Assembly: GCA_034530615.2 (NCBI GenBank) | Contig: JAVRCV020000017.1 | Span: 1 to 18,284 of the forward strand | Direction of reading: 5' to 3' | DNA length: 18,284 nt | Source of the DNA: Aulosira sp. ZfuVER01 | GTDB taxonomy: Bacteria > Cyanobacteriota > Cyanobacteriia > Cyanobacteriales > Nostocaceae | Shown: one piece after another, positions 1 through 15,000 of the stretch | Position numbering within the stretch: the stretch's first letter is position 1 | How the letters are laid out: each line of letters begins with the position of its first letter | Program-made: the position numbers

Positions 1-3000
1 TTAGATTACATCTTATGCTTCCTTCCAGCTTAAGTTGACACCAATGAGCATTGCTAAACCCTTACCCACTTTTGGGCATACTGAATTTGATTTAGGTGCG
101 ATCGCCAGAAAATAGGACATAAATATTTTAATTCCCGTTCTGGATAATCAATATTTCTATTAACGGACTTATTTTCTAGAGGAATTATTAAAAATAAGAT
201 GATTAAAATATATTTTTTTTGTCACTTTTCTCTTCAAAAAATCATAGGAAAATATCAATTTATTGCGGAAGATAGTAATGAAAAGCGGTAATCTGCTATA
301 TGCAAAATATGATATTTTCCTAGTAATGCGCTATGCCATTTTTATTAAATTCTCAGAATGTCTTAGATTATTTAACTAGACATAACCTTTGCTTTCAAGT
401 AGAGAAAGACCAAATTGAGATAGAGTTGAAAGCTGCCAAAAATTTTAATTTGTTACTAACCCTGCCAAATAATCAAAAGCTGTTAGTTAAGCAAGAACGG
501 CACAATCATGAAGGAAAGGCATCTGGTGAATTTTTAAGTGAGTGGCGAGTTCAAGAAGTCTTACAAAGATTTCCAGAACTAAATCATCTTCACCCATCAC
601 TACCAGTGATATTACATTTTGATACAGAAAATTCTATTATCGTTTTTAGATACCTGGATGATTATCAGGATGCAATGGAATTCTACACAAAGGAAAAAAT
701 TTTTGATAGTGAAATCGCTATAGCAATTGGTACTTGCCTAGCTACTATCCATCGTCATACTTTCAATAACCAGGAATATCAAGATTTTTTATCTAAGAAT
801 TTAGATAACTCTAGAACAGAACAGGTGAGAAATTTAATTCGGGGGTTGGAACGGATAGAACCAGAAATTTTTGGTGTAGTACCTGCTGATGGATTGAGAT
901 TTTTTGCCCTGTACCAACGCTACGACAGTTTAGGAGAAGCTCTGAGAAACTTGGGTAATGCTGTTATTCCTTGTTGTTTAACCCACAATGATTTAAAGCT
1001 AAATAATATATTAGTTCATAAAAATTGGCAGCAATCAACTAACAGTATTGTACGCCTAATTGATTGGGAACGTTCTGCTTGGGGAGATCCAGCTTTTGAT
1101 TTAGGAACACTTATTAGTAGCTACGTACAATTATGGCTAGGTAGCCTAGTTATTAGTAAATCTTTAAGTCTTGAGGAATCTCTAACTTTAGCGATGACTC
1201 CTTTAGAACAACTTCAGCCTTCAATTGCTACATTAACTCAAGTTTATTTGCAGACATTTCCAGAAATTTTAGAACACCGTCCTGATTTTTTACTGCGGGT
1301 AATGCAATTTACAGGTTTTGGTTTAATTCAAGGAATTCAGTCCATGATTCAGTATCAAAAATCTTTCGGCAATGTAGGTATTGCTATGCTTCAGGTTGCC
1401 AAAAGCTTATTATGTCGTCCAGAACAATCAATACCGACAATTTTTGGTGCGATTGGTACGAGTAAATTAATTAGACAAACTGCTTTGACTGCTTAACTAT
1501 TTTCTGATAATTCAATCATTATGCAATTACTTAACTCTGTTCAGAGTCAGCTTCAAGCTGGGATAAATCAGCGATTACTAGATGTTCTAGAAGATATTGT
1601 TAACAAGGTAGAAATTAATTTTGATTTCTCCATTCGCCATCCAGATTATAAACCATTGGAAATACCTGCTGAAGCTGTTGAACGCTTTCAAAAATTACCT
1701 GGAGAAATGCAGCAAAAATATCTCAGTCTGCAATTGCGGAGTTTTCTGTATGGTATTTATTACAATGGTTCAATGCGAACCGAACTAGCAGCAGATAAAA
1801 AAGAAAATAATTTGCCCTTAGATTTAGAAAATAATACAGTTTTAGGGGTAGATATTGGTTTTTATAAACAATTGCATGACAGTAATTATGGAGAGGGATA
1901 TTTTCAGCCTGGCTGGTCGATTTTGAGAGAAGAAAGTGATGGCAGTTTGGCAGTTAGTAGGGGTGGATTGAGACTGCATATTCAAAAAGATAGGCATTTA
2001 CTAGCATCTGATAAATTTGCTGTTGTGGGTGATGTAATTGCGATTAAAATGCCTAAAAATGTGGTACAAAGTGGATTTTATATGGCGGTTGGTAATGCCG
2101 GATTATATCGCAATGATTTAGAAAATCAACAAATTGTGCGAATATATTTCAATTTAACTCCTTCAGGCGCTGTTGCGGTCATGGGTAATATAACGCAGCA
2201 TTTGAATGAGAAAAATATACCTTTTCAATTTAAAGTTTTGTATCATCCTAAAGATTACAAACGCCACGATTCAGGGGTTTTGTATTTTGACAAGCAGGAT
2301 TATGAAGTAGTAAAGCAATCTTTAAACTCTATTTATATAGAAAATCAAGGGGACTTTAAATCTGAAATTCCCTTGTTTACTAAAGAACTAGCACCAGGGT
2401 TAAGTTTAGCAGAAGAACCAGATCAAAAGTTTGCCGAAAGGGAAAGTTTTGGGATGAATCGCTGTCAGATAATTGCAAATGGTTTGTTAGAAGCTTGGTA
2501 TCAGGGAGATAATTCGCCCCAAGGACGGATGAAAGCAATTCAAGAGCAATTTTCGCTTGTAGGAATTGATTTCGAGCGTGTTCACCTTAATGCCAACTCT
2601 GAGGATATTTACAAAGCCTTGGATTTATCTTAGCCAATGTCATTAAAATATTGTTTAAAAGATTTTGTAAACGAAGTATCAGTTTTAGAGATTTGTAGCA
2701 TGGAAATATCAGCCTCAAAATTATCGCAAATAGCTATCAACGCAACTTTTTTTTCTGAACAAATCAATAATAAGGATTGCAAAAATATCAATCCTCAAAA
2801 GCTTGACCAAAATTTAATTGAAAAACGGCTTAAAAATTGGTGTAAAGCAGTTGGAGGAGAAGAAAAACTTAAACAACGTCTCCATTGGGATAGATTAGAT
2901 TTAAATACAGTTCGTCCCTTACTAGTAACAGCAGATATTGGAGAAGATTATAATTTACCAACTTGGACAGAAACTCTTAAAGAATTAATTCAAAGTGGCA

Positions 3001-12000: not shown

Positions 12001-15000
12001 CTGCACCACAGTCTGATGAACTCTGTTGGGCAAAAAATGGATAGCGTTTAGTTACGCGCTGCCATAAATGCCCTACTCTTTGAGTGGGGTTAGGAAAGTA
12101 GGCTTTGCCGATCTTTTTCTGTGGATTACTTGCTGTTGCTGGGGAAGCACTCGTCGGTTCTTCCCGTTCAGCAAGCTGGCGTGGGACATCGGGAGATGGG
12201 GGTTCGCTGTCAGACTTAACTAATAGGGAATTTCGTGCTTGTGCCTGGGTGCGTAAATGTTCGTAAATTTGTGGATACTTAGCTATCAATTGCGACAGCA
12301 CTTCACTGGGAAGAAAAGCCAGGTGTAAGTTAACACTTGCTCTGGCTGCATAAGGTTTAAAACCTGCTTCCTGAAACAAGGTAAATTCACCAAACGATCC
12401 TCCTAACTCCAAGGTTGCAATCAGTTCGCCTGCATCATCAAGCAATCTAACTTTGCCTGCAAGCACAATATAAATACCTGGTTCAACGTCTGTTCCTTGC
12501 CAAAATTTTCCTACCTTGGGGGTAAGAGATTTAACTTGTTGAAGGCAGTGCTGTAAGTCTTCTGAGGAGAGAGAATAACCTAAGACAGTGCATAATTGCT
12601 GCAAAGACAGCAACTCTGATAGATTTTGCGCCATGAAATCCTGAATTTCTACTTACTTTTTATGTGTATTTATTTTTCTGATTCCAAAAGAAAAAATCCG
12701 GTAAAATTACGTGAATTTTCGGATTTGAGGTCAGAGATTAAGATTTTTTGTCCTGCGGTCTTCTCTGTATTTTCACCTTTAGATGGGCTGGGTTTGGGGA
12801 TTGTTGATAATCCCATTTGTTTGAGGACTCGCTTGAGGTGGCGATCGCTAACTTCAATTCCTAATTCTTTCGCTAAATGCTTTTTCAACCAGCTGACTGT
12901 CCAGCGTCTAAACCCATAGCCATAATCGCGGGGACTTTGGGAAAGCAACTGTTGTAAGCGTTCTAAATATTCCTGACTAATAGCTTTCGGACGACCAAGA
13001 GGACAATCCTGCCATTGGTGCGCCATCCCCGTCCGGGCAATGTGCATCCAATGCCGTGCTGTCGCCGGACAACATGCTAAGGTCTGACAAATTTCCGTTT
13101 GGGTTTTGCCGTCATCCGCCAACAACATAATTTCTATTCGCTGACGATAAGACTCAGACAAATCCTCTTGCAGGTTTTTTTGCAGCAGTTTGCGCTGAAA
13201 TGGTGTTAAATACTTACCTGCCCCAATATTTGGGATATCAACTTCAGGTTGCTCAAAATCTTTTGACATTACAGTATCGGCTGTTATTCCCTATAGATTG
13301 ACTGATAAACTTTTATGCACCCTGAAAGTTAAAGTAGATATAACCGTAAAATACGGTATATCTTAAGTTTTGTTTAATACTCTGTAGAATACAGACGCAA
13401 GTTTTTTGCACCCAAAAGTCAATACTTTGGGAATTGATACTGGTAACTACACAGATAATAAATAATTTTCCGTAAAATTTTATTGATTCAACTAGCTGCA
13501 TTGATTAAAAGGGTATGGGTATCGGATACCAACCCCAAGTCTGGATTGGCCAGCAATACATCCATGACCTCAAGCCCCCGTAATACCATTTCACTTTAAT
13601 ATTGATACACATAGGCAGCAGGGGGCAGGGTGCAGGGGGAAAGAATTAGAGATTCATCATGTGTATCAGGTATTTCGTGAAATGGTATAAGACGCAGTTG
13701 CTAAAAGCGATCGCTCATGTACATACCGCGATAACCATCACTGAACAACTGCTTCTGCAATTGATTTGGGGCGATCGCTACATTAGTCCATCATCACTGG
13801 CAGGATAGCACCCACAGTTTTCTGAATACTAACTGCCAGTAGAACAGTAGTATCGCTCGCCTACTTTCCAAAGCTGAAGCGCAACTATCAGAAAGAGAAT
13901 TCCTGCGATTGGCGATACGTAACAAAACCATAAAGGCACTAAAAAATTATCTTCTTTTTCAAGTACTGCGAGCAGAGGAAAATAGCTGACGCAGCCAAGC
14001 GGTATCAAGAAGGTAAAAAATCGCTGAAACCATTTGCTATAAATTGAAAGCGGATATTGAGCAGTTTCAACTCCTCCATAAGTGAGGATATTCATAATTT
14101 CTAGCGATTCAATAGTCCAGAATGTCAGGGTTGCTTGCACAATCACGATACCAACAAATAGTGCAACCCCACCAATAAATGATGTACCCAAAAGCCAAAA
14201 TGTTTTAAAAGTAAAAGGAATGTATAGCGTTGAAAGCGACCACGCCATCAACACAATTCCTTGAGCAACTCGTCCGATTCGTTTAAAGGTAAATTCTGTG
14301 CCTAAAAGTTGCAGTACTGTAGTGCGTGGACGAAGCAGTAAACGGTCGAAATCACCACTTTTAATTATTTTTGTAAAATAATCAAACCCTTTTCCCAGAG
14401 CATCAGCACAGGCAAAAGAAATATTAATCATGCCATAAAACAGCGCAACTTCCGCAAGAGTCCACGTACCAATACTATTAAAGCGAGAAAATAATGCCCA
14501 AATTCCGAAAAATTCAATAACAGTTACTAAAAATTGCCCTAATACTTGCAGCCAAAAGGACACTTGATACTGCATTTGCGACTTGAAAGATACAGAAATA
14601 TATCGAAAGTAAAGCCAAAAATTGTTCACACTCAATTCGCTCCTCTCACGCTAAATTACGAATTATTTTCATCCGCCTTGAATTACCAGCTTGCTTACAC
14701 CACGCTTCACAAGAAAACGTCCAAGGATAATAATGACGACTATCCAAATAATTTGATGAAGCAATACGTTAAACAGGGCATTTGGTGGCAGATTACCTGT
14801 AAACAGACGAAAAGGTTTATCAAGTAATCCTGAAAAAGGAAGGACATTTAAAATCGGCTTGATCCAATCAGGAAAAAGTGGCAGAGGCACTATCATTCCA
14901 GAGAAGATAGTCAGAATAGGCGGGAAAACACTATTAATTCCTTCGCCAGAAATTGTCCACATCATTGATATAGTAAGAAGCATAGTCAATGTAGAGGAAA

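What a model noticed while it worked through the whole genome (the two positions that open the first line are those of the whole stretch)
333..12634. Lanthipeptide cluster that joins a class II LanM with class V-type kinase and HopA1 lyase genes
On a low-GC (36.6%) 18-kb contig an APH-type kinase gene (g01432), a HopA1-family gene (g01433) and a LanM gene (g01434) stand head to tail with 3-24 bp between them, followed by two double-glycine precursor genes (g01435, g01436) and a C39-peptidase ABC exporter. I read it as a hybrid pathway in which two unrelated dehydration systems (LanM and a LanK/LanY-like pair) act on the same peptides. New would be a mixed class II/class V lanthipeptide route.
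Evidence so far: Tables: g01432 APH/Choline_kinase, g01433 HopA1, g01434 DUF4135+LANC_like (NCBIfam LanM), g01439 cNMP_binding+Peptidase_C39+ABC. The precursors share a leader that ends in GG and have Cys/Ser/Thr-rich cores. neighbours.tsv: HopA1 beside DUF4135 in 20 genomes of all 199,903 (18 in this order), HopA1 beside APH in 1754. Paper search HopA1 + LanM + lanthipeptide + kinase + cyanobacteria: none of the 8 listed describes such a hybrid by title or abstract.
(Added by a program. Inside this text positions count along the whole contig: contig position 1 is position 1 of the stretch shown here. "Call 12" and the like, gene names such as g00115 and contig names such as C1 are that model's own, and its searches are not shown. 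The text may have been shortened before it was handed on; [...] marks where a part breaks off. The agent that wrote the report below was given it as the finding of a first reader that could run no searches.)

Follow-up and report, generated by a model that had tools for sequence, protein, structure and literature searches.

The report
Lanthipeptide cluster with a crippled LanM
A cyanobacterial gene cluster for ring-containing peptides in which a separate kinase and lyase appear to have taken over the water-removing step from the usual all-in-one enzyme (LanM), which has lost key catalytic residues and seems to be kept mainly to close the rings.

Summary

The reading as a hybrid with two working dehydratases is only partly supported. 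This LanM belongs to a monophyletic clade (85 cluster representatives in the protein search). In that clade the CylM-defined kinase and elimination residues are replaced, in different ways in different lineages. In the window D252 is N and H349 is S. The Zn-cyclase residues never change, and the kinase-like domain stays under purifying selection (dN/dS 0.16-0.27). All LanMs outside the clade except one (25/25, 34/35, 54/54) keep the canonical set.

Fifteen of 18 clade contexts have K/Y next door. Two sit at contig edges and one has its K/Y 716 kb away.

- The precursors carry the leader type of LanM-less K/Y clusters, not the Nif11 leader of the nearest LanMs.
- Cores beside LanM always contain Cys (31/31 against 1/9 without LanM).

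Most likely K/Y dehydrate and LanM cyclises. That is a class Vb-like route built from a class II enzyme. It is a new variant of a known kind. There is no chemistry and no RNA data.

The parts
333..1496 (+). LanK-like APH-fold Ser/Thr kinase (387 aa)
   Evidence: Pfam APH E 1e-13. The best NCBIfam hit is LxmK, NF038156, at 88.8 bits over profile positions 24-344 of 347, below the 315 cut-off. The HxDxxxxN motif at residues 218-225 and the DxE at 244-246 are present. They are intact in 33 of 35 related K proteins; both exceptions are LanM-less loci.
1521..2633 (+). LanY-like HopA1-family phospho-Ser/Thr lyase (370 aa)
   Evidence: PF17914 E 1.6e-59. It aligns to PDB 9DK1 chain B, 'Lyase', at E 2.5e-8. 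R207, K238, R248 and Y255 have the spacing of the CaoY catalytic residues R187, K219, R229 and Y236 (passages of PMC9486802). All four are present in 34 of 36 related Y proteins, including all 12 LanM-linked ones.
2637..5942 (+). LanM-type protein (1101-aa ORF; the likely true start is the ATG at 2700, giving 1080 aa)
   Evidence: DUF4135 plus LANC_like. TIGR03897 945.7 bits. The best solved relatives are LicM2 6ST5 (E 1.9e-75) and CylM 5DZT (E 3.3e-40).
3375..4505 (+). Kinase-like (dehydratase) domain of LanM with a degenerate active site
   Evidence: Mapped on CylM. D252 is N301 (codon 3537-3539), H349 is S400 (3834-3836) and T512 is S556 (4302-4304). H254, K274, D347, N352, D364 and R506 are kept. 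dN/dS is 0.16-0.27 in 8 pairs within the clade.
4860..5930 (+). LanC-like Zn cyclase domain of LanM, intact, with a 'CCG' three-Cys site
   Evidence: H907, C969, C1016 and C1017 are present. They are invariant in every clade member that covers them: 84/84, 84/84, 83/83 and 83/83. There are 0 parsimony changes at these sites in 83 tips.
6112..6139 (+). Terminator-like hairpin after LanM
   Evidence: Ten-pair stem followed by a T run. This is a consensus match only. The scan as a whole found no more sites than shuffles did.
6451..6636 (+). Precursor A1 (61 aa; GG at residues 39-40; 21-aa core with 2 Cys and 3 Ser/Thr)
   Evidence: The leader family is shared with all K-Y-LanM loci and with LanM-less K/Y clusters. 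It is listed as network 1 ('Family 1A') in supplement 2 of PMC8153245 for relatives.
6786..6995 (+). Precursor A2 (69 aa; GG at residues 41-42; 27-aa core with 4 Cys and 3 Ser/Thr)
   Evidence: An 87%-identical copy lies in L013.
7283..8020 (-). PpiC/SurA-type peptidyl-prolyl isomerase, conserved in the cluster
   Evidence: Rotamase E 1.2e-10. TIGR04500 'peptide maturation system protein' at 77.5 bits, below the 180 cut-off. It is 63-90% identical in the related clusters.
8214..9725 (-). HlyD-type periplasmic adaptor
   Evidence: HlyD_3 E 1.7e-21. TIGR01843 231 bits, above its cut-off.
9899..12634 (-). cNMP-binding + C39 peptidase + ABC exporter (leader cleavage after GG, and export)
   Evidence: Peptidase_C39 E 3.9e-41, ABC_membrane, ABC_tran, and cNMP_binding E 5.5e-8.
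12670..13269 (-). HTH protein resembling the N-terminal part of an IS630 transposase; the conserved right edge of the cluster
   Evidence: HTH_32/33/23. NF033545 profile positions 1-124 of 299, at 75 bits, below the cut-off. It is present at 55-91% identity beside the ABC gene in the related clusters, including the LanM-less variants. The ABC-2 genes further right have no counterpart in any relative.

Best explanation
This is a three-enzyme lanthipeptide pathway.

1. The APH kinase (K) phosphorylates Ser/Thr in the cores of the double-glycine precursors.
2. The HopA1 lyase (Y) eliminates the phosphate to give dehydroalanine or dehydrobutyrine.
3. The LanC-like Zn domain of LanM adds the core cysteines to these residues to close the thioether rings.
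4. The C39-ABC/HlyD exporter removes the leader after GG and exports the product.

The LanM kinase-like domain no longer does the dehydration, or does very little. It is kept under selection for a non-catalytic role, most plausibly binding the leader or the peptide for the cyclase.

Historically, a ProcM-like LanM that used Nif11-type leaders joined a cyanobacterial K/Y cluster once. After that its own catalytic residues decayed independently in many lineages.

Shown here: gene content, residue states, conservation patterns, synteny, and the correlations with leader type and Cys content. Inferred: all of the chemistry.
For: 1) Active site. Passages of PMC4550811 name D347, H349, N352, D364 and K274 as the phosphorylation residues of CylM, and D252, H254, R506 and T512 as the elimination residues. 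The phmmer alignment to CylM and LicM2 puts N, S and S at D252, H349 and T512 in the window LanM.

2) Clade-wide decay.
- In Nostocaceae, all 12 K/Y-linked LanMs plus L014 have a change in D347 or H349, and 12 of these 13 also at D252. Five different residue patterns occur. All 25 other LanMs tabulated are canonical.
- In the protein search, 2 of 85 clade members keep D252, D347 and H349 together, and 7 of 85 keep DxH. Of 35 outgroup proteins, 34 are canonical.
- In metagenome loci, 54 of 54 non-clade LanMs are canonical and 4 of 4 clade members are not.

3) The decay targets the catalytic site. The minimum numbers of changes within the 83-tip clade are 14 (D252), 12 (D347), 17 (H349) and 18 (T512). 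The median for other outgroup-invariant DUF4135 columns is 1.5. The four cyclase residues show 0 changes.

4) The domain is not a relic. Within the clade its identity is 0.704 against 0.701 for LanC. Its dN/dS is 0.16-0.27 against 0.14-0.36 for LanC.

5) K/Y look active. The kinase and lyase motifs are intact in all 11 LanM-linked K and all 12 LanM-linked Y proteins.

6) Linkage. K/Y are adjacent in 15 of 18 clade contexts. No K/Y is seen beside any non-clade LanM: 0 of 25, and 0 of 76.

7) Leader type. All precursors in K-Y-LanM loci carry the leader family that this genome also uses beside its LanM-less K/Y pairs on C55 and C52. The nearest non-clade LanMs sit beside Nif11-type precursors.

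8) Cys content. All 31 unique cores beside K-Y-LanM contain Cys (mean 3.3). Only 1 of 9 cores beside LanM-less K/Y does.

9) Slot swap. In two same-genus genomes an otherwise about 90%-identical cluster has, in the place of LanM, a second K/Y-like pair with dead catalytic residues, next to 2-Cys precursors.

10) Single precursors. At least three K-Y-LanM clusters (L011, L055, L056) have only one precursor gene. K/Y and LanM therefore cannot each have a peptide of their own.
Against: - No chemistry and no expression data exist.
- The window LanM keeps D347, K274, N352, D364, H254 and R506. Per the same paper, CylM-H349A still made a little dehydrated product and D252A gave partial dehydration. 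Weak or altered LanM kinase activity is therefore not excluded here.
- Across the clade, K274 (84/85), H254 (83/85), D364 and R506 (80/85 each) and N352 (77/85) are retained. The domain is as conserved as the cyclase. This fits some retained nucleotide- or phosphate-dependent function.
- A Microcoleus K-Y-LanM has only D252N. Two clade members are fully canonical, with unknown context.
- In G591 the decayed LanM is not next to K/Y; the genome's only HopA1 gene lies 716 kb away.
- All K/Y-linked LanMs form one clade, so the K/Y-LanM link is a single historical event, not replicated evidence.
- The comparison loci L035-L052 had only 1.5-kb flanks, and many metagenome contigs are short.
- The mapping of the Y residues onto CaoY rests on spacing and on an alignment to 9DK1_B, not on a direct alignment to CaoY.
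Confidence: 0.6

Rival explanations
1. True hybrid. Both LanM and K/Y dehydrate, for example at different Ser/Thr positions, or LanM phosphorylates and Y helps with elimination. The unusual LanM residues would then be a tolerated or specialised variant.
For: - The window LanM keeps D347 and the ATP/Mg residues K274, N352 and D364.
- CylM H349A and D252A are impaired but not dead (passages of PMC4550811).
- The kinase-like domain is under purifying selection.
- The Microcoleus member differs only at D252, which is an elimination residue.
Against: - The catalytic positions are among the most often rewritten of the columns that are invariant in other LanMs, and the replacements are chemically unrelated (N/E/S/A/P; N/S/K/E/H; G/D/E/Y/Q/R).
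- D347, whose Ala mutant was inactive in CylM, is lost in 42 of 85 clade members.
- Of 114 non-clade LanMs tabulated, 113 keep all eight canonical residues (D252, H254, K274, D347, H349, N352, D364, R506); the one exception has Ile at H349.
Confidence: 0.2
2. LanM is a decaying relic with no role. K/Y make dehydrated peptides that stay linear or cyclise spontaneously.
For: - LanM remnants lie between the precursor and the PPIase in two relatives, L093 and L094.
- The Y tree needs at least 4 gains or losses of LanM linkage (quick tree).
- Many K/Y clusters of this family have no cyclase.
- The review PMC12328550 reports ring formation without a cyclase for several class Va peptides.
Against: - All 13 Nostocaceae clade LanM reading frames are open along their whole length; the only stops lie in the first 13 codons of two tblastn matches, upstream of the likely start.
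- The Zn ligands and the catalytic His are invariant in the 83-84 members that cover them.
- dN/dS is 0.14-0.36 in both domains.
- Cys-rich cores occur beside LanM and are nearly absent without it.
Confidence: 0.08
3. The K/Y pair has a job unrelated to the LanM next door, and the adjacency is incidental.
For: - K/Y pairs are very common in Nostocaceae. This genome has 4, and 179 of 389 genomes have a close homologue of this Y.
- One pair in this genome (C11) sits in a non-RiPP context beside men-type genes.
- In G591 the LanM and the K/Y pair are 716 kb apart.
Against: - K/Y are adjacent in 15 of 18 clade contexts and in none of the non-clade LanM contexts.
- The precursors beside LanM use the K/Y-type leader, not the Nif11 leader of the LanM's nearest relatives.
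- The LanM catalytic residues decay only in this clade.
Confidence: 0.04

Closest known systems
Class Vb lanthipeptide synthetase SmoK/SmoY/SmoC (Streptomyces). I know it from the review PMC12328550 (passages). The primary paper, Pei et al. 2022, was not held.
   Same: A separate APH kinase, a HopA1 lyase and a Zn LanC-type cyclase. This is the division of labour I propose here.
   Different: The cyclase here is the C-terminal domain of a full-length LanM that still carries a conserved but catalytically degenerate kinase-like domain. The leaders are double-glycine leaders with a C39-ABC exporter. The host is a cyanobacterium, whereas the review says class V has so far been found only in actinobacteria.
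Class II LanM enzymes of the ProcM type (three-Cys 'CCG' zinc site, many hypervariable precursors); solved relatives CylM 5DZT and LicM2 6ST5
   Same: Domain architecture, full-length TIGR03897 match, a CCG cyclase site, and 1-6 precursors per cluster with a conserved leader and hypervariable cores. The name 'ProcM type' and the significance of CCG are recalled, not taken from a call.
   Different: The kinase and elimination residues are not conserved. The leader is not of the Nif11 type used beside the nearest canonical relatives. A K/Y pair is present.
Class Va LanK/LanY(/LanX) systems: CaoK/CaoY, LxmK/Y/X (PMC9486802, passages)
   Same: A K/Y gene pair with the kinase motifs and the lyase residues R, K, R, Y. 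The best NCBIfam hit of K is LxmK.
   Different: There is no AviCys decarboxylase, reductase or LanX. K is far below the LxmK equivalog cut-off (88.8 against 315 bits). A LanM is present.
'Family 1A' cyanobacterial HopA1-phosphotransferase RiPP-like clusters (Eyles et al. 2021, PMC8153245, section 16 and supplements 1-2); 'type-B' putative LanA of PMC9486802
   Same: The same cluster family and leader type. Supplement 2 lists the precursors of the Nostoc carneum NIES-2107 and Tolypothrix sp. PCC 7910 K-Y-LanM loci. Supplement 1 marks LANC_like beside a Pleurocapsa sp. PCC 7319 HopA1. [quoted passage not shown]
   Different: In the text I read, that work does not single out LanM, its degenerate active site, or the Cys/LanM correlation. 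No product is known. I could not see its figures or its large PDF supplement.

Membership tests
Class II lanthipeptide synthetase LanM (TIGR03897; PF13575 + PF05147) | DUF4135 dehydratase domain followed by a LanC-like domain in one protein of about 1000 aa | tested here: met
   PF13575 positions 1-377 of 378, PF05147 positions 2-349 of 350, TIGR03897 945.7 bits against a cut-off of 304.
Class II lanthipeptide synthetase LanM (TIGR03897; PF13575 + PF05147) | Conserved phosphorylation residues (CylM D347, H349, N352, D364, K274) | tested here: not met
   H349 is Ser here; the other four are kept. In the clade the DxH motif is intact in only 7 of 85 members.
Class II lanthipeptide synthetase LanM (TIGR03897; PF13575 + PF05147) | Conserved phosphate-elimination residues (CylM D252, H254, R506, T512) | tested here: not met
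   D252 is Asn and T512 is Ser; H254 and R506 are kept. T-to-S also occurs in canonical LanMs (9 of 35 outgroup proteins), so D252N is the meaningful change.
Class II lanthipeptide synthetase LanM (TIGR03897; PF13575 + PF05147) | Zn ligands and catalytic His of the cyclase domain | tested here: met
   H907, C969, C1016 and C1017 are present and invariant in the clade.
Class II lanthipeptide synthetase LanM (TIGR03897; PF13575 + PF05147) | One enzyme performs both dehydration and cyclisation | not testable with these tools
   This needs co-expression or an in vitro assay.
Class V dehydratase pair LanK/LanY | APH-fold kinase with a catalytic HxDxxxxN loop and a metal-binding Asp | tested here: met
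   Residues 218-225 and 244-246. Pfam APH. The NCBIfam LxmK equivalog cut-off is not reached: 88.8 against 315 bits.
Class V dehydratase pair LanK/LanY | HopA1-domain lyase with the catalytic Arg, Lys, Arg and Tyr (CaoY R187, K219, R229, Y236) | tested here: met
   R207, K238, R248 and Y255 have spacings of 31/10/7 against 32/10/7 in CaoY. The equivalence is inferred from spacing and from the 9DK1_B alignment.
Class V dehydratase pair LanK/LanY | Kinase and lyase genes adjacent and co-conserved | tested here: met
   A 24-bp gap here. All four HopA1 genes of this genome have an APH gene directly upstream.
Class Vb three-protein synthetase (LanK + LanY + stand-alone LanC) | The cyclase is a stand-alone LanC protein | tested here: not met
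   The LanC-like domain is the C-terminal third of a 1101-aa LanM. The system works like class Vb but is not a member by architecture.
Double-glycine leader peptides with a C39 peptidase ABC exporter | The leader ends in GG, and the exporter has an N-terminal C39 domain | tested here: met
   The cleavage itself was not tested.

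The most novel reading that the evidence does not exclude
The LanM kinase-like domain has become a selected pseudokinase with a new non-catalytic role. It has lost its catalytic base but keeps the residues that bind ATP, Mg and phosphate (K274, N352, D364, H254, R506). It may still bind a nucleotide or the phospho-Ser/Thr intermediate. It may also serve as the platform that holds the leader peptide and docks K/Y, giving a three-protein synthetase that channels the peptide from kinase to lyase to cyclase.

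The dead K2/Y2 pair that fills the same slot in sister genomes would be a second, independent case of a dehydratase module turned into a cyclase or scaffold. That would be the same route by which class V kinase-fold cyclases may have arisen.
Probability: 0.3. Interest if true: 0.75.

Novelty: new variant of a known kind. Interest (0 to 1): 0.62.

Why it matters
If the model holds, this is a natural case in which one lanthipeptide dehydration machinery (class V K/Y) has displaced another (the class II LanM kinase site) inside a single pathway. It leaves a conserved pseudokinase fused to a working cyclase.

- It blurs the enzyme-based class boundaries of lanthipeptides.
- It gives a ready-made evolutionary series, running from nearly intact (a single D252N change beside K/Y in Microcoleus; two fully canonical members of unknown context) to fully degenerate active sites, for asking what the LanM N-domain does besides catalysis.
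- It points to a large untapped family of Cys-rich cyanobacterial peptides: 85 LanM cluster representatives, 1-6 hypervariable precursors per locus, and no known product.
- The ProcM-like CCG cyclase working on K/Y-dehydrated substrates could also be of use in peptide engineering.

Tried and rejected
- RNA evidence: the look-up of sequencing runs listed no RNA holder, so I laid no reads.
- Promoter and terminator scan: there were fewer promoter-like sites than in shuffles, so it is uninformative apart from one hairpin after LanM.
- Metagenome scan with P0014, one of the two fully canonical clade members: no relative found. A phylum sample of 401 genomes held no close relative either. Its gene context stays unknown.
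- Paper PMC9621591 (Pei 2022) is not held.
- One paper search was wasted because 'SmoK' matched 'smoking'.
- Earlier notes of this scan: none on this genome or on look-alike stretches.
- I considered a complex prediction (K/Y with a precursor, or Y with the LanM N-domain). I did not send one, because the report does not rest on a binding claim and an enzyme-substrate job is rarely informative.
- I considered that A1 and A2 might be split between the two systems, as in two-component lantibiotics with two LanMs. I rejected this because several K-Y-LanM clusters have a single precursor.
- I considered that the low GC of the contig marks a plasmid or an artefact. I rejected this because the cluster is chromosomal in relatives and its low GC is a property of the cluster itself.

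Full report
**What is there**

The window is a whole 18,284-bp contig (C17) of an 8.03-Mb, 83-contig genome. Its GC of 0.366 is the lowest of all the contigs; the genome is 0.413.

On the plus strand lie:
- an APH-type kinase (333-1496);
- a HopA1-family protein (1521-2633);
- a LanM (2637-5942; DUF4135 plus LANC_like; TIGR03897 at 945.7 bits);
- two small genes (6451-6636 and 6786-6995) whose products share a leader ending in GG and have Cys- and Ser/Thr-rich cores.

On the minus strand follow:
- a PpiC-type isomerase (7283-8020);
- a HlyD adaptor (8214-9725);
- a cNMP-binding/C39/ABC exporter (9899-12634);
- an HTH protein like the N-terminal part of an IS630 transposase (12670-13269).

There is one caveat. 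Relatives and the database gene call (1080 aa) suggest that LanM starts at the ATG at 2700, not at 2637. My residue numbers use the 1101-aa ORF.

**The K/Y pair is a RiPP dehydratase pair in this organism**

- The genome has four HopA1 genes, each with an APH gene directly upstream.
- Three of the four pairs sit with HlyD/C39-ABC exporters and with small GG-leader genes.
- The fourth pair (C11) lies beside thioesterase and men-type genes.
- K has the HxDxxxxN loop and the DxE motif. Y has an Arg, Lys, Arg and Tyr with the spacing of the residues shown by mutagenesis to matter in CaoY (passages of PMC9486802).
- These residues are intact in all 11 K and all 12 Y proteins that sit beside a LanM.

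**The LanM active site**

The CylM paper (PMC4550811, passages) names D347, H349, N352, D364 and K274 for phosphorylation. It names D252, H254, R506 and T512 for phosphate elimination.

I counted along the phmmer alignment, where the letters at CylM positions 252, 254, 272, 274, 301, 347, 349, 352, 354, 361, 364, 506 and 512 match those the paper names. On this alignment the window LanM has:
- Asn at D252 ('SNPHNGG' against 'GDSHSRG');
- Ser at H349 ('KDCSSEN' against 'TDLHYEN');
- Ser at T512.

The other six residues are kept, and so are the cyclase His and the three Zn cysteines.

**Is this a property of K/Y-linked LanMs?**

I searched 389 Nostocaceae species genomes. Thirteen LanMs in 12 genomes are at least 61% identical to this one. 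The next-best matches drop to 48% and below.
- Twelve of the 13 have K/Y upstream.
- The thirteenth (L014) starts 1.2 kb from a contig end, with a precursor gene directly upstream.
- None of the next 18 LanMs (1.5-kb flanks), six others, or this genome's second LanM has K/Y in view.

In the residue table:
- all 25 of those other LanMs keep all eight canonical residues (D252, H254, K274, D347, H349, N352, D364, R506);
- all 13 clade members have a change in D347 or H349, and 12 of the 13 also at D252;
- five different residue patterns occur.

I left L021 (truncated) and L015 (C-terminal part only) out of that table.

The wider protein search gave 120 listed homologues.
- Eighty-five form the clade. 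It includes proteins whose sources name Moorena, Pleurocapsa, Symploca and Rippkaea.
- D252 is kept in 17 of 85, D347 in 43 and H349 in 29.
- DxH is intact in 7 of 85. All three residues are intact in 2 of 85 (P0013, P0014).
- K274 is kept in 84, H254 in 83, D364 and R506 in 80 each, and N352 in 77.
- The four cyclase residues are invariant in every member that covers them.
- Of 35 outgroup proteins, 34 are canonical.

In 80 metagenome loci, 58 cover the site. All 54 non-clade LanMs are canonical and all 4 clade members are not. HMMs built from my K and Y alignments hit only three loci, all in the clade. One of these, L096, duplicates L059.

**The decay is targeted and repeated**

- On a FastTree of the 83 full-length clade members the clade is monophyletic, with support 1.0 and a stem of 0.51. 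Two fragments under 900 aa were dropped.
- Fitch parsimony needs at least 14, 12, 17 and 18 changes at D252, D347, H349 and T512.
- The median for the other DUF4135 columns that are invariant in the outgroup is 1.5.
- The cyclase residues need 0 changes.
- The domain as a whole is not decaying. Within-clade identity is 0.704 against 0.701 for the LanC domain. dN/dS is 0.16-0.27 against 0.14-0.36 in eight pairs.
- It therefore behaves like a selected pseudokinase.

**The pathway link**

- Every precursor in K-Y-LanM loci carries one leader family.
- The same family stands beside the LanM-less K/Y pairs of this genome.
- The closest canonical LanMs sit beside Nif11-type precursors.
- The LanM tree puts the clade as sister to those LanMs.
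- The Y tree is a quick search, because the careful one did not finish. It scatters LanM-linked Ys over at least four places.
- Two relatives carry LanM remnants.
- The simplest history is a single recruitment of a ProcM-like LanM into a K/Y cluster, followed by several losses or exchanges.
- All 31 unique cores beside K-Y-LanM contain Cys (29 of them have two or more; mean 3.3). Only 1 of 9 cores beside LanM-less K/Y does. That sample is small, the flanks were short, and the genomes are related.
- In two same-genus genomes the cluster is about 90% identical from the PPIase to the HTH gene. There the LanM slot holds a second APH/HopA1 pair in which the kinase Asp and all four lyase residues are replaced, next to a 2-Cys precursor.

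**Results against my reading**

- The window LanM keeps D347 and the ATP/Mg residues. CylM H349A and D252A were impaired but not dead.
- A Microcoleus K-Y-LanM differs only by D252N.
- Two clade members are fully canonical, and I could not obtain their context.
- In G591 a strongly decayed LanM with a Cys-rich, K/Y-type-leader precursor lies 716 kb from the genome's only K/Y pair. This fits K/Y acting in trans, but it is an exception to adjacency.
- Overall, K/Y are adjacent in 15 of 18 distinct clade contexts. Two are at contig edges and one is in trans.
- All linked LanMs are one clade, so the link itself is one event.
- There is no chemistry, and no RNA run was listed.

**Comparison with what is known**

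- The division of labour matches class Vb (SmoK/SmoY/SmoC), as described in the review PMC12328550. The primary paper was not held.
- The cluster family and its leaders were catalogued bioinformatically as 'Family 1A' by Eyles et al. 2021 (PMC8153245, section 16).
- Their supplement 2 lists precursors of the Nostoc carneum and Tolypothrix K-Y-LanM loci. Their supplement 1 marks LANC_like beside a Pleurocapsa HopA1.
- PMC9486802 mentions cyanobacterial 'type-B' putative LanAs.
- In six paper searches I found no paper whose listing or abstract, or whose passages where I read them, describes a LanM beside K/Y or a LanM with a degenerate dehydratase site.
- I could not see the figures or the large PDF supplement of PMC8153245, which may show such clusters.

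**Composition**

The cluster is 0.35-0.36 GC against 0.40-0.43 in its flanks in six relatives. It lies on contigs of 6.8-9.0 Mb in four genomes. The odd composition therefore belongs to the cluster itself, not to a plasmid or an artefact.

**Verdict**

The finding is real and is one pathway. It is most likely not two working dehydratases. K/Y dehydrate, and the LanM is reduced to a cyclase with a conserved pseudokinase domain. It is a new variant of a known kind, and a simple co-expression experiment can test it.

Noticed in passing
L091 6868-9162 (G029) and L092 10568-12852 (G024): In two same-genus genomes the LanM slot of an otherwise about 90%-identical cluster holds a second APH/HopA1 pair. 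The kinase catalytic Asp is Asn, and the lyase Arg, Lys, Arg and Tyr are all replaced. Beside it is a precursor with 2 Cys. This may be a pseudo-enzyme pair acting as a cyclase or scaffold.
   Followed up: partly
L093 5941-6587 (G188) and L094 12856-13423 (G137): Short LanM fragments (47, 32, 82 and 45 aligned residues) lie between the precursor and the PPIase in K/Y clusters without an intact LanM. These are remnants of lost LanM genes.
   Followed up: partly
L016, L018, L019, L020, L022; proteins P0100, P0102, P0104, P0106, P0110, P0111, P0113, P0116-P0120: A group of cyanobacterial LanMs shows the mirror image. The dehydratase residues are canonical, but two Zn-ligand cysteines are replaced (Phe; Glu or Arg). 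This suggests dehydratase-only LanMs.
   Followed up: no
G591:C1, L194 8692-12314 and L193: A unicellular cyanobacterial genome has a strongly decayed clade LanM with one Cys-rich precursor. Its only K/Y pair lies 716 kb away with its own Cys-free precursor and a PPIase. This is a natural in-trans arrangement.
   Followed up: partly
L007 (own genome, contig C55, 74802-93347): This is a second K/Y cluster in the same genome, without LanM. It holds a radical SAM enzyme, Nif11-type and GG-leader peptides without Cys, K, Y, an aldo/keto-reductase-like protein, two PPIases, HlyD and a C39-ABC exporter. The reductase could reduce dehydro residues to D-amino acids. That function is my guess.
   Followed up: no
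protein P0086: A 1453-aa LanM homologue carries precomputed NRPS condensation and AMP-binding domains as well as DUF4135 and LANC_like. Its source names it as coming from a Rivularia MAG.
   Followed up: no
window 2637-5942 compared with L053, L012 and L055: Synonymous divergence differs two- to three-fold between the DUF4135 and LanC domains in some pairs. Against L053 it is 0.44 and 0.20. For L012 against L055 it is 0.20 and 0.59. This points to recombination inside LanM.
   Followed up: no
window 13829-18053: Two ABC-2 permease genes and an ABC ATPase (13829-16476, minus strand) and a 464-aa ORF (16659-18053, plus strand) with no Pfam or NCBIfam hit lie to the right of the cluster. None has a counterpart beside the related clusters, so they are probably not part of it.
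   Followed up: partly
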